Origin: the human T2T-CHM13v2.0 reference genome, Homo sapiens
DNA: 64,000 nt
Assembly (NCBI GenBank): GCA_009914755.4
Contig: CP086569.2
Location: 31,808,001 to 31,872,000, forward strand
Direction: 5' to 3'
In this document: positions 54,583 to 64,000 of the stretch, in pieces
Layout of the letters: each line of letters opens with the position of its first letter
Position numbering within the stretch: position 1 is the first letter of the stretch
The notes under the pieces: generated by a model
The model's database searches: none
The model's input: only the letters and a program-made list of their open reading frames with translations
Told to the model about the DNA's origin: nothing
Program-made: the position numbers and the translations under genes

Positions 54583-54880
54583 TTTTTTTTTAGACAGAGT
54601 CTTGTCCTGTTGCACAGGGTGGAGTACAATGGCGCCATCTTTGCTCACTGCAACATCTGCCTCACGGGTCCAAGCGACTGTCCTCCCTCAGCCTCCCAGG
54701 TAGCTGGGACTACACCACACTGGGACTACACCAGCTGCCACCATGCCTAGCTAATTTTTTGGATTTTTAGTAGTGACAGCGTTTCACTGTATTGGCCAGG
54801 ATGGTCTTGATCTCTTCACCTTGTGATCCCCTTGACTTGGCCTCCAAATTTGCTGGGATTACAGGCCTGAGCCAAGATCC
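54583..54880 (-). mobile_element. Alu (minus orientation), copy in unit 6
   Basis: Same Alu. Private 'caagcgactgtcc' and 'ccttgacttgg'. Confidence 0.85.
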
Positions 54881-57002
54881 ATATTTTTTAAATGAAAAAA
54901 AATTTCAAAGGTACTCTGCTTGGTACAATAATCAAATGTATAAACTGAGGAATAAAACATAACCATGAAACCTACTTATAACTGCATATGGAAAATACAG
55001 AGGATAATTTTTTAAATAACATACTTTGAAAGCCTTAACTAGTAATTTGAAGGGTTGGCATTTGAAAGGCCAGTATGAATATACCTTCAAAGCAGCAACA
55101 CAGGTTCCCCATGAGAAAAAGCAAACTCAGGGAAAATAAAACCACAAAGGTTCAATCTCTTCTGACCTTTGAAAGACACAGCACAGACAGTGGTCCTTAG
55201 GACGAAGAGCAGGAGACCCCTAATTCCGTCACCATGGCGATAGGGCATAAACATTGCTTGGTGAGGGCACAATCCACATTGTGAGGTCCAACTGCTGCCA
55301 GGAAGACAGGAGTGCTTTTACATAGACCGAAAGGTCATTGAAGGCTCAGAGTTTTGTTTCAAGAACTGAATCCCAAGCCCACACGTTATTAGGCTGCGCT
55401 TCTTAAAACAAGTTATGAGATGGGAAAAAGGGCACCCACAGACATACGTATACATTATGTATATAATAATATACAGTATCATATATATAATATATATAAC
55501 CTATGTATAATATTGTTTTACATCCTGCATCTTATATTATATATATTGTATAAAATATAATAATTGATAATATATAAGTTTTATATTTATACAATATGAC
55601 ATATAGTATATATTATAATTTATGACATATATAATGTATGTTATATATCATATATAGAATATATTATACGGTTAATATACGTATTAAATATGAATTATAC
55701 ATTATATATATTATATATAATATATCTGTTATATATAATACCCATTATGCATAATATATATATTATGTCGATGTTATATATAGTATAAAACAACATATAA
55801 TAATATATAATTGTGTATATAATATGCGACATATAATATATATTATATTTTATGACATATGTAATATATATTATATATTATATATAATACGTTGTATGTA
55901 TAATACCTATAATAAATATATATTATATGACTATGTTATTAATTACATGTCACATGTGTTATATATTATATATTTTACATAGAATATACCGGTTACATAC
56001 AATATATACTATGTTACCTATAATGTAAAATTTATTACATGTGAAATAAAGAATGCAATATATTATGTATAATTTATAATACACAATATGTGGAATGTGA
56101 TATATATAACATATAATATATGATATATGATATACAGTATATGATATATAACATACAATATATGATACCTAATATATATGGTATACAATATATATTTTAT
56201 GATATGTATTCCATATGTTTTATATTTTGTTATATATAACTATTTGAAATTATATATAACTGTATAATATTTTATGTAAATATGTAATATAATATATATA
56301 ACTATATAATATATTATATATAACTATATATTATGTTATATATACTTTTATAACATAATTTACATAAAATATCATAATATAATATATATTATATTATTTC
56401 ATATTACATAATATATATTACATATCACCCAATATAAGTAACATACATAATATTATAATATAGATTATATTATGTTATATTAAATATCATATATATCATG
56501 TATCATATAATCTATCATATATATTATACATTATATAATATGTATGTTGTCTATTATGTGATATATATAACTATATATATAATTATATTATTATACATAT
56601 AACTAGATAAACATGTAATTCTACATATTTTCATTTATAATATATAGAATTATATAATCATATATAATTATTTATATTCTATAAAAAATTATATCATTAT
56701 ATAAATTATAATATGTAAAAATTATAATATGTACTACAAATATATATATTATATATCATATATGATATGGTACCTTTGTTATATATCATAATACATATAA
56801 ATGTGTATTATGTTATCTATAATTATATAATTTCATGTATAAGATGTATAATATTTATTATATATTGTATATGTTATGTAATATATATAGTATATATAAG
56901 ATGACACAGGATAAATATTATATACTATGACATATAAAATATATGAGGTTATATGTTACATATAAGGCATAGCACATAACATGTAATATATATCAGATAT
57001 AA
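54583..57002. repeat. DYZ2-like unit 6 (2420 bp). Near-identical to unit 9.
   Basis: Alu poly-T starts at 54583. Shares 'gcttggtgagggc', 'ataatgtatgtt', 'aatatgaattatac', 'ttgtgtatataatatgcgac', 'gtgaaataaag', 'atcatataatctatcatat' and 'aatatgtaaaaatt' with unit 9. Confidence 0.8.
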
Positions 57003-57300
57003 TTTTTTTTTAGACAGAGTCTTGTCGTGTTGCACAGGGTGGGGTACAATGGCGCCATCTTTGCTCACTGCAACATCTGCCTCACTGGTCCAAGCGATTG
57101 TCCTCCCTCAGCCTCCCAGGTAGCTGGGACTACACCACACTGGGACTACACCAGCTGCCACCATGCCTAGCTAATTTTTTGGATTTTTAGTAGTGACAGC
57201 GTTTCACTGTATTGGCCAGGATGGTCTTGATCTCTTCACCTTGTGATCCCCTTGCCTTGGCCTCCAAATTTGCTGGGATTACAGGCCTGAGCCAAGATCC
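57003..57300 (-). mobile_element. Alu (minus orientation), copy in unit 7
   Basis: Same Alu. Private 'cctcactggtcc' and 'gtcttgtcgtgttgc'. Confidence 0.85.
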
Positions 57301-61842: not shown

Positions 61843-62140
61843 TTTTTTTTTAGACAGAGTCTTGTCCTGTTGCACAGGGTGGAGTACAATGGCGCCATCT
61901 TTGCTCACTGCAACATCTGCCTCACGGGTCCAAGCGATTGTCCTCCCTCAGCCTCCCAGGTAGCTGGGACTACACCACACTGGGACTACACCAGCTGCCA
62001 CCATGCCTAGCTAATTTTTTGGATTTTTAGTAGTGACAGCGTTTCACTGTATTGGCCAGGATGGTCTTGATCTCTTCACCTGGTGATCCCCTTGCCTTGG
62101 CCTCCAAATTTGCTGGGATTACAGGCCTGAGCCAAGATCC
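61843..62140 (-). mobile_element. Alu (minus orientation), copy in unit 9
   Basis: Same Alu. Private 'cacctggtgatcc'. Confidence 0.85.
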
Positions 62141-64000
62141 ATATTTTTTAAATGAAAAAAAATTTCAAAGGTACTCTCCTTGGTACAATAATCAAATGTA
62201 TAAACTGAGGAATAAAATATAACCATGAAACCTACTTATAAGTGCATATGGAAAATACAGAGGATAATTTTTTAAATAACATATTTTGAAAGCCTTAACT
62301 AGTAATTTGAAGAGTTGGCATTTGAAAGGCCAGTATGAATATACCTTCAAAGCAGCAACACAGGTTCCCCATGAGAAAAAGCAAACTCAGGGAAAATAAA
62401 ACCACAAAGGTTCAATCTCTTCTGACCTTTGAAAGACACAGCACAGACAGTGGTCCTTAGGACGAAGAGCAGGAGACCCCTAATTCCGTCACCATGGCGA
62501 TAGGGCATAAACATTGCTTGGTGAGGGCACAATCCACATTGTGAGGTCCAACTGCTGCCAGGAAGACAGGAGTGCTTTTACATAGACCGAAAGGTCATTG
62601 AAGGCTCAGAGTTTTGTTTCAAGAACTGAATCCCAAGCCCACACGTTATTAGGCTGCGCTTCTTAAAACAAGTTATGAGATGGGAAAAAGGGCACCCACA
62701 GACATACGTATACATTATGTATATAATAATATACAGTATCATATATATAATATATATAACCTATGTATAATATTGTTTTACATCCTGCATCTTATATTAT
62801 ATATATTGTATAAAATATAATAATTGATAATATATAAGTTTTATATTTATACAATATGACATATAGTATATATTATAATTTATGACATATATAATGTATG
62901 TTATATATCATATATAGAATATATTATACGGTTAATATACGTATTAAATATGAATTATACATTATATATATTATATATAATATATCTGTTATATATAATA
63001 CCCATTATGCATAATATATATATTATGTCTATGTTATATATAGTATAAAACAACATATAATAATATATAATTGTGTATATAATATGCGACATATAATATA
63101 TATTATATTTTATGACATATGTAATATATATTATATATTATATATAATACGTTGTATGTATAATACCTATAATAAATATATATTATATGACTATGTTACT
63201 AATTACATGTCACATGTGTTATATATTATATATTTTACATAGAATATACCGGTTACATACAATATATACTATGTTACCTATAATGTATAATTTATTACAT
63301 GTGAAATAAAGAATGCAATATATTATGTATAATTTATAATACACAATATGTGGAATGTGATATATATAACATATAATATATGATATATGATATACAGTAT
63401 ATGATATATAACATACAATATATGATACCTAATATATATGGTATACAATATATATTTTATGATATGTATTCCATATGTTTTATATTCTGTTATATATAAC
63501 TACTTGAAATTATATATAACTGTATAATATTTTATGTAAATATGTAATATAATATATATAACTATATAATATATTATATATAACTATATATTATGTTATA
63601 TATACTTTTATAACATAATTTACATAAAATATCATAATATAATATATATTATATTATTTCATATTACATAATATATATTACATATCACCCAATATAAGTA
63701 ACATACATAATATTATAATATAGATTATATTATGTTATATTAAATATCATATATATCATGTATCATATAATCTATCATATATATTATACATTATATAATA
63801 TGTATGTTGTCTATTATGTGATATATATAACTATATATATAATTATATTATTATACATATAACTAGATAAACATGTAATTCTACATATTTTCATTTATAA
63901 TATATAGAATTATATAATCATATATAATTATTTATATTCTATAAAAAATTATATCATTATATAAATTATAATATGTAAAAATTATAATATGTACTACAAA
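61843..64000. repeat. DYZ2-like unit 9 (partial at window end, 2158 bp). Paralogue of unit 6.
   Basis: Alu poly-T starts at 61843. The variants listed for unit 6 recur here, exactly 7260 bp downstream. Confidence 0.8.

What the first reader, a model, noticed from the sequence alone, without database searches (positions are those of the whole stretch)
54583..64000. Three-unit (7.26-kb) duplication within the DYZ2 array (unit 6 = unit 9)
Units 6 and 9 share a set of variants found in no other unit: 'PHQAM' in the spacer ORF, 'gcttggtgagggc', 'ataatgtatgtt', 'aatatgaattatac', 'ttgtgtatataatatgcgac', 'gtgaaataaag', 'tacacaatatgtgg', 'atcatataatctatcatat' and 'aatatgtaaaaatt'. They lie exactly 7260 bp (3 x 2420) apart. 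Units 3-5 do not show the pattern, so this is a local recent duplication of a 3-unit block. Its partner units 10-11 lie beyond the window.
Basis: seen in the sequence. Interest (0 to 1): 0.5.

Follow-up and report, generated by a model that had tools for sequence, protein, structure and literature searches.

The report
Local repeat-copy event in Y-chromosome satellite
Two copies of the 2.4-kb human Y-chromosome DYZ2 satellite repeat, three units apart, are nearly identical over their last 1.7 kb, which is the ordinary footprint of out-of-register exchange that is already known to reshape this satellite.

Summary
The window is a DYZ1/HSat3 array (1-41744) joined to a DYZ2/HSat1B array (41745-64000) of nine 2,416-2,420-bp units plus a partial one. 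All unit pairs are 97.2-98.3% identical except u6/u9, at 99.26%.

One correction is needed. The near-identity does not cover the whole unit. It starts inside unit 6, between 55054 and 55258 (62314-62518 in u9). From there to the window end (1,687 bp) there are 5 mismatches, against 30-52 for every other pair, and 10 exclusive shared variants. The first 482 bp of u6 and u9 differ at 11 sites, which is background level.

There is no 3-unit periodicity upstream. The shared alleles are essentially absent from 16-48 external DYZ2 copies.

The best reading (about 0.6) is a 3-unit tandem duplication by unequal exchange, with u9 as the hybrid junction unit. A long gene-conversion tract (about 0.25) cannot be excluded, because units 10-12 lie beyond the window and could not be retrieved. 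The neighbouring DYZ1 array shows an almost complete 3-unit block duplication. Whole-unit DYZ2 gains and losses are documented at about one per Y transmission. The finding is ordinary and of low interest.

The parts
1..41744 (+). DYZ1 / HSat3 array (GGAAT-type pentamer satellite organised in units of ~3,534-3,573 bp). This is context, not part of the event.
   Evidence: TRF finds pentamer-derived periods over 1-41744. GC is 0.38-0.39 with strong GC skew. Unit spacing is 3,534-3,573 bp by BLAST. Unit matrix.
41745..64000 (+). DYZ2 / HSat1B array: partial unit u0 (41745-42482), eight full units u1-u8, and partial u9. The Alu part lies antisense on the + strand.
   Evidence: Unit coordinates. Units are 2,416-2,420 bp, 24% GC, with 16-18 CpG per unit and ACATACG at column 870. 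The Alu segment is 82% identical to a recalled AluY consensus, positions 13-288.
54572..55053 (+). Head of unit 6 (Alu plus the start of the GC-richer part). It is NOT part of the near-identical segment.
   Evidence: 11 mismatches against 61832-62313 at lag 7260, and no exclusive shared variant. The background mean for this segment is 7.3 (range 2-14).
55054..55258 (+). Interval holding the left boundary (breakpoint or tract start) in unit 6. It cannot be narrowed because this stretch is almost invariant in all units.
   Evidence: The last head mismatch is at 55053 and the first u6/u9-exclusive variant is at 55259. Background divergence here is only 0.67%.
55054..56740 (+). Copy A of the near-identical segment (tail of unit 6). 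The in-window comparable part is 1,687 bp.
   Evidence: 5 mismatches against copy B (55770, 55939, 56028, 56227, 56243) and 10 exclusive shared variants at 55259-56716.
56992..61831 (+). Units 7 and 8. Under the duplication model they are the rest of the first copy of the 3-unit block, and their predicted partners u10 and u11 lie beyond the window.
   Evidence: Coordinates. u7 is the next closest unit to both u6 and u9 (30-31 tail differences).
61832..62313 (+). Head of unit 9. It is at background divergence from the u6 head. Under the duplication model it is the end of the first copy.
62314..62518 (+). Interval holding the junction in unit 9 (the crossover point of the hybrid unit, or the conversion tract start).
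   Evidence: Same boundary logic as in unit 6, shifted by 7,260 bp.
62314..64000 (+). Copy B of the near-identical segment (tail of unit 9), cut off by the window end.
55087..55272 (-). The 61-codon 'spacer ORF' that carries PHQAM (its twin is at 62347-62532). It is a mechanical ORF and serves only as a marker of the column-687 G>T variant.
   Evidence: Listed by the ORF listing. No Pfam match. No identical product on record.

Best explanation
This is a tandem duplication of a 7,260-bp block (three DYZ2 units), produced by out-of-register exchange between sister chromatids, or an equivalent misaligned repair or replication event, within the Yq12 DYZ2 array. The exchange point lay in the nearly invariant stretch at unit columns 482-686. 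Unit 9 is therefore a hybrid: its first ~480-690 bp come from the unit originally at that position, and the rest is a copy of unit 6.

The first copy of the block runs from about 55054-55258 to about 62313-62518. The second copy starts there and should run to about 69570-69780, beyond the window. After the event, the two copies accumulated 5 differences in the 1,687 bp that can be compared.

Shown: the offset, the near-identity, the internal left boundary, and the absence of periodicity upstream. Inferred: that the near-identity continues through u7/u10 and u8/u11 for exactly one period, and the mechanism itself.
For: - u6/u9 is the only outlier in the unit matrix. The offset is exactly 3 x 2,420 bp.
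- There is a sharp change from background divergence (11 differences in 482 bp) to near-identity (5 in 1,687 bp), as expected for a hybrid junction unit.
- The near-identical stretch is at least 1,458 bp between the outermost shared variants, and 1,687 bp up to the window edge, where it is still running. The last shared variant is 24 bp from the end. This is well above the median Y-palindrome conversion tract of 542 bp (PMC13252187).
- The DYZ1 array in the same window contains an almost fully visible 3-unit block duplication. d6/d9 is 99.5%, d7/d10 is 99.6%, and d8/d11 is near-identical for ~60% of the unit, against a background of 98.5-99.0%.
- Pedigree data show de novo SVs of 2,416-4,839 bp, each removing or adding whole DYZ2 units, at about one per Y transmission (PMC12240836).
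- The T2T-Y paper attributes Yq12 structure to unequal exchange and reports sister-chromatid exchanges there.
- The 43-Y paper reports localized expansions and contractions of DYZ units.
Against: - Only 23% of the predicted second copy is in the window. The defining prediction (u7=u10, u8=u11, and the end of identity exactly one period after the start) is untested.
- Attempts to retrieve downstream sequence failed.
- Interlocus gene conversion is also documented in Yq12 and would give the same in-window picture.
- The documented de novo DYZ2 SVs span 1-2 units, not 3.
Confidence: 0.6

Rival explanations
1. Non-reciprocal gene conversion occurred between unit 6 and unit 9 (interlocus or intra-array conversion). 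A tract starting at unit columns 482-686 and at least ~1.5-1.7 kb long overwrote one unit's tail with the other's, with no change in unit number.
For: An internal left boundary with a background-level head is exactly what a conversion tract would show. In pedigrees, 17-29% of de novo Yq12 SNVs look like interlocus conversion. Three of the five tail differences are not private: two carry alleles shared with u3 or u1 (columns 1456, 1655), hinting at small exchanges in this array.
Against: The tract is at least 1,458 bp and still running at the window edge. That is about 3 times the median Y-palindrome tract of 542 bp. The exact integer-unit offset together with the block duplication in the neighbouring DYZ1 array favours unequal exchange. 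None of this excludes a long tract.
Confidence: 0.25
2. u6 and u9 belong to a DYZ2 sequence subfamily or to a 3-unit higher-order repeat that recurs through the array or the chromosome. Their similarity would then reflect family membership rather than one local event.
For: The window samples only nine units. A higher-order repeat starting at u6 and continuing downstream (u6, u9, u12...) cannot be excluded. One of the ten alleles (column 1510) was seen once in an external copy, L017.
Against: There is no lag-3 similarity among u1-u8: u3/u6, u1/u4, u2/u5, u4/u7 and u5/u8 are all at background. Nine of the ten u6/u9 alleles were absent from external DYZ2 fragments recovered from metagenome and contaminated bacterial assemblies. 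For eight of those nine sites the common allele was seen 16-48 times; for column 1640 the common-allele probe also found nothing. The tenth allele occurred once. The variant-specific 26-mer had no hit in the metagenome collection. A subfamily would also not explain the head/tail switch within the unit.
Confidence: 0.08
3. Assembly artefact: a falsely duplicated or mis-joined stretch in a satellite that is hard to assemble.
For: Yq12 is among the hardest regions to assemble. Neither read support nor the origin of the window is available here.
Against: The two copies differ at 5 sites, and the flanking units u7 and u8 are distinct from each other and from all other units. A collapse or false duplication would more likely give perfect identity. 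The 7.26-kb spacing is within the span of single long reads.
Confidence: 0.05

Closest known systems
De novo whole-unit DYZ2 structural variants seen in a four-generation pedigree (PMC12240836)
   Same: Gains and losses of integer numbers of ~2.42-kb DYZ2 units within Yq12 arrays. The satellite, scale (kb) and presumed mechanism are all the same.
   Different: Those events were 2,416-4,839 bp (1-2 units) and were observed directly between father and son. Here the offset is 3 units (7,260 bp), the event is old (5 differences have accumulated), and it is inferred from sequence similarity only.
Iterative tandem duplications and unequal exchange in Yq12 of T2T-Y (10.1101/2022.12.01.518724)
   Same: Tandem duplication within the DYZ1/DYZ2 heterochromatin, attributed to unequal exchange between sister chromatids.
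   Different: The events highlighted there reach up to 5 Mb and span whole DYZ1 and DYZ2 blocks. This one is a 7.26-kb intra-array event.
Localized expansion and contraction of DYZ repeat units across 43 Y chromosomes (10.1101/2022.12.01.518658)
   Same: The same satellite, the same unit (2,413/2,420-bp consensus with the ACATACG segment), and the same homogenisation by local expansion. Units at array edges are described as more divergent, matching the 97-98% identity seen here next to the DYZ1 junction.
   Different: That work describes array-scale gradients, not individual multi-unit duplications with mapped breakpoints.
Higher-order repeats of satellites (for example alpha-satellite HORs) and the classical unequal-crossover model of tandem-array evolution (general knowledge)
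   Same: A multi-unit block copied in tandem is the first step by which a higher-order period arises.
   Different: No array-wide 3-unit periodicity exists in the window. At most two copies of the block are implied.

Membership tests
DYZ2 / HSat1B satellite of human Yq12 | Tandem unit of ~2.4 kb (published consensus 2,413 or 2,420 bp) | tested here: met
   Eight full units of 2,416-2,420 bp. The best self-lag is 2,420. Published lengths.
DYZ2 / HSat1B satellite of human Yq12 | Three-part unit: an extremely AT-rich part, a 5'-truncated ancient AluY (~20% diverged), and a GC-richer HSATI part | tested here: met
   The Alu segment aligns to positions 13-288 of an AluY consensus that I recalled from memory, at 82% identity, antisense on the + strand. 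There is a weak sub-threshold hit to the miRNA family mir-1268 in the same segment. The sequence read directly shows the GC-richer stretch followed by an AT-rich part of ~1.5 kb. Published description.
DYZ2 / HSat1B satellite of human Yq12 | ~24% GC, ~1 CpG per 150 bp, and the ACATACG segment at the HSATI/AT-rich junction | tested here: met
   GC is 0.242-0.246 with 16-18 CpG per full unit. ACATACG is at unit column 869-870 in all nine units. Published values.
DYZ2 / HSat1B satellite of human Yq12 | Arrays alternate with DYZ1 (HSat3, ~3.5-3.6-kb units of pentamer origin) | tested here: met
   A pentamer satellite with 3,534-3,573-bp units occupies 1-41744 and abuts the 2.42-kb array at 41744/41745.
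DYZ2 / HSat1B satellite of human Yq12 | Direct alignment to the published DYZ2 consensus or to a Y-chromosome reference | not testable with these tools
   No human reference is held. Indirect support: 98-99.5% identity to fragments present as contaminants in metagenome and bacterial assemblies, which is consistent with human origin.
Tandem block duplication by unequal exchange | Near-identity between positions offset by an integer number of units, well above the array background | tested here: met
   At lag 7,260 = 3 x 2,420 there are 5 differences in 1,687 bp, against 30-52 for all other pairs.
Tandem block duplication by unequal exchange | A hybrid junction unit: a sharp switch from unrelated to near-identical sequence at the start of the second copy | tested here: met
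   The switch lies between 62313 and 62519 in u9 (55053 and 55259 in u6). A conversion tract would show the same.
Tandem block duplication by unequal exchange | The near-identity at that lag lasts exactly one period (7,260 bp), with u7=u10 and u8=u11 | not testable with these tools
   The window ends 1,687 bp into the second copy. The downstream sequence could not be retrieved.
Three-unit higher-order repeat | Lag-3 similarity recurring along the array | tested here: not met
   u1/u4, u2/u5, u3/u6, u4/u7 and u5/u8 are all at background (40-50 tail differences).
Gene-conversion tract | A short patch (hundreds of bp; median 542 bp in Y palindromes) bounded on both sides by background divergence | tested here: inconclusive
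   The left boundary was found. The right boundary was not reached after at least 1,458-1,687 bp. Tract-length reference.
Protein-coding gene ('spacer ORF') | Recognisable protein family, or an identical product on record elsewhere | tested here: not met
   The 61-aa ORF and two neighbouring ORFs have no Pfam hit. No identical product is on record. The start codon varies between TTG and ATG among units.

The most novel reading that the evidence does not exclude
The u6-u8 block may be the first repeat of a locally amplified 7.26-kb (3-unit) higher-order repeat that continues for many copies downstream of the window (u6=u9=u12=...). That would be a nascent higher-order period inside DYZ2, arising at the array edge next to a DYZ1 array that also carries a 3-unit block duplication.
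Probability: 0.1. Interest if true: 0.3.

Novelty: already known. Interest (0 to 1): 0.1.

Why it matters
It matters little beyond bookkeeping. It is one mapped example, with a breakpoint interval of about 200 bp, of the unit-scale turnover that homogenises Yq12 satellites. It could serve as a lineage marker if it is polymorphic among Y haplogroups. It illustrates that breakpoints need not coincide with unit boundaries. It opens no new question, because the process has already been observed directly in pedigrees and in complete Y assemblies.

Tried and rejected
1. Retrieving downstream sequence.
- An exact-product look-up of the PHQAM ORF found nothing on record.
- The variant-specific 26-mer had no hit in metagenome contigs.
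- A generic DYZ2 27-mer found nothing in viral contigs. It found 25 metagenome loci and 18 loci in bacterial 'genomes'.
- These loci are short collapsed fragments or noisy long-read contigs at 80-97% identity. They were useful only as an allele-frequency sample and not for extending this locus.

2. Array-wide 3-unit HOR: rejected, because no other lag-3 pair is elevated.

3. Whole-unit identity: rejected, because the head is at background divergence.

4. Coding significance of the 'spacer ORF': rejected, with no family match and a variable start codon.

5. Rfam scan of unit 6: only a sub-threshold hit to the miRNA family mir-1268 inside the Alu part.

6. The GC dips in the 2-kb composition profile suggested that some units might lack the Alu/HSATI part. 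BLAST shows that all units are complete, so the dips are a phase effect of the bin size.
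Full report
**What the window is**

Tandem Repeats Finder and the composition profile split the window in two. Positions 1-41744 are a GGAAT-type pentamer satellite with 38-39% GC and strong GC skew. Positions 41745-64000 are an AT-rich sequence with 21-27% GC.

BLAST of one AT-rich unit against the window gives head-to-tail units starting at 42483, 44901, 47321, 49737, 52155, 54572, 56992, 59412 and 61832. A partial unit lies at 41745-42482. Full units are 2,416-2,420 bp long.

Each unit has the following features:
- 24% GC and 16-18 CpG.
- The ACATACG segment at the junction of the GC-richer and AT-rich parts.
- An antisense Alu, 5'-truncated by 12 nt and 82% identical to an AluY consensus that I recalled from memory.

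These match the published descriptions of DYZ2/HSat1B: a 2,413/2,420-bp consensus, 24% GC, 1 CpG per 150 bp, and a 5'-truncated ancient AluY about 20% diverged.

The pentamer part is organised in 3,534-3,573-bp units, as described for DYZ1/HSat3. Fragments 98-99.5% identical to these DYZ2 units turn up as contaminants in metagenome and bacterial assemblies, which fits a human origin. A direct alignment to a human reference was not possible.

**The observation**

In the all-against-all matrix from a MAFFT alignment of the units, 35 pairs have 39-66 differences (97.2-98.3% identity). The u6/u9 pair has 16 differences in 2,169 bp (99.26%).

- 'PHQAM' occurs only at 55266 and 62526 on the minus strand. 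It lies in a 61-codon mechanical ORF, and the other units read PHPAM or PHPAV, except u1, where no match to the searched motif was found.
- Variants carried by exactly two units number 10 for u6/u9, 4 for u1/u3, and at most 1 for every other pair.
- An ungapped comparison at lag 7260 reproduces the 16 mismatches.

**The refinement**

The 16 differences are not spread evenly. Eleven lie in unit columns 1-481 (window 54573-55053) and five lie in columns 1198-1671. All ten exclusive shared variants lie in columns 687-2144 (55259-56716).

Other pairs average 7.3 differences (range 2-14) in the first 482 columns and 42.3 (range 30-52) in the rest. The u6/u9 pair shows 11 and 5.
- The tail is an extreme outlier (Poisson P = 5.5e-13).
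- The head is at, or slightly above, background. If the head shared the tail's ancestry, 0.86 differences would be expected (P = 2e-9).

The near-identical segment therefore begins inside the unit, between 55054 and 55258 (62314-62518 in u9). This stretch is almost invariant in all units (background 0.67%), so the boundary cannot be narrowed further. The segment is still running at the window end: the last shared variant is 24 bp from position 64000. The comparable length is 1,687 bp, and the minimum by outermost shared variants is 1,458 bp.

**What it is not**

- It is not a 3-unit higher-order repeat of the array. u1/u4, u2/u5, u3/u6, u4/u7 and u5/u8 are at background in every bin.
- It is not a common DYZ2 subfamily. 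Across 43 external loci containing DYZ2, nine of the ten u6/u9 alleles were never seen and one was seen once. At nine sites the common alleles were seen 16-48 times; the column-1640 common-allele probe found none. The variant-specific 26-mer found nothing in the metagenome collection. The external sample is small and partly made of collapsed consensus contigs, so a rare subfamily is not excluded.
- The ORF has no coding support.

**Mechanism**

An unequal exchange between sister chromatids misaligned by three units, with the crossover at unit position x, produces a specific layout. It creates a hybrid unit whose head is the resident unit and whose tail is a copy of the unit three positions upstream. 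That hybrid unit is followed by copies of the next units. At lag 7,260, near-identity should then last exactly one period.

The in-window data fit the start of that pattern: u9 is the hybrid and x lies in columns 482-686.

Two lines of circumstantial support exist.

1. The DYZ1 array in the same window carries an almost fully visible block duplication, also of three units. d6/d9 is 99.5% and d7/d10 is 99.6%. d8/d11 is near-identical for about the first 60% of the unit and then returns to background, which is 98.5-99.0%. Adjacent-unit near-duplicates are also present (d1/d2 99.9%, d4/d5 99.4%).

2. The literature documents the process directly.
- A four-generation pedigree gave five de novo Yq12 SVs of 2,416-4,839 bp, each affecting whole DYZ2 units, at about one per Y transmission (PMC12240836).
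- The T2T-Y paper attributes Yq12 structure to unequal exchange and saw sister-chromatid exchanges in about 15% of Strand-seq libraries.
- The 43-Y study reports localized expansions and contractions.

**The main rival**

The main rival is a gene-conversion tract between u6 and u9. Interlocus conversion is also documented in Yq12: 17-29% of de novo SNVs there look like conversion. A conversion would give the same left boundary.

Against it, the tract would be at least 1.5 kb and still open-ended, compared with a median of 542 bp for Y-palindrome conversion tracts. That argues by degree only.

The decisive test is whether u7/u10 and u8/u11 are near-identical and whether identity ends one period after it began. 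That test needs sequence beyond 64000, which I could not retrieve. My estimates are duplication about 0.6, conversion about 0.25, subfamily or HOR about 0.08, and assembly artefact about 0.05.

**Age (inference)**

The tail divergence is 5 differences in 1,687 bp, or 0.30%, which is about 12% of the background pair divergence.
- At the published Yq12 satellite rate of 3.86e-7 per bp per generation, this gives about 3,800 generations (Poisson 95% range about 1,200-9,000).
- At a euchromatic Y rate of roughly 3e-8 per generation (my own approximate figure), the estimate is about 13 times longer.

'Recent' therefore holds only relative to the rest of this array edge.

**Verdict**

The phenomenon is an ordinary and already documented mode of satellite turnover. 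Interest is low.

Noticed in passing
window 20001-41390 (DYZ1 units d6-d11; unit starts 20001, 23554, 27127, 30696, 34255, 37823): The DYZ1 array carries its own 3-unit (~10.69-kb) block duplication. d6/d9 is 99.5% and d7/d10 is 99.6%. d8/d11 is near-identical for about the first 60% of the unit and then returns to background, which is 98.5-99.0%. The lag-3 near-identity lasts roughly 9-10 kb, close to one period.
   Followed up: partly
window 2277-9359 and 12898-20000: Adjacent DYZ1 units d1/d2 (99.9%) and d4/d5 (99.4%) are much closer to each other than background, which suggests single-unit duplications.
   Followed up: no
L031 5897-6798 (NZ_HF570958.1, Nostocoides japonicum T1-X7, 5.16-Mb scaffold); also L026-L043: Human DYZ2 sequence at 97-99.5% identity sits in 18 records of bacterial 'genomes', including 902 bp inside a 5.16-Mb scaffold. 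It is also in 25 metagenome loci. This looks like human contamination, and in L031 possibly a chimeric join.
   Followed up: partly
window 42483-49736 (DYZ2 units u1-u3): u1, u2 and u3 form a weak local cluster at 98.0-98.3%, with 4 variants exclusive to the trio. u1/u3 share 4 exclusive variants confined to unit columns 977-1446, a patch that could be a short conversion tract.
   Followed up: no
window 41744/41745: This is the DYZ1/DYZ2 junction. The pentamer satellite ends at ...aatggaatagaatc. The DYZ2 array begins in mid-unit (unit columns ~1733-2420) with a partial unit that is 96.5% identical to u1 over 692 aligned bp.
   Followed up: partly
window 43444-43881, 57960-58390, 60380-60810 (and the same place in other units): There is an internal ~230-bp sub-repeat (1.9 copies, 74-76% matches) inside the AT-rich part of the DYZ2 unit. 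BLAST also shows it as self-matches between unit columns ~880-1130 and ~1125-1356.
   Followed up: no
window 54687-54753 (-): A sub-threshold Rfam hit to the miRNA family mir-1268 (33.9 bits against a gathering score of 83) lies inside the Alu part of unit 6. I expect this simply reflects the Alu sequence and is not a miRNA gene.
   Followed up: no
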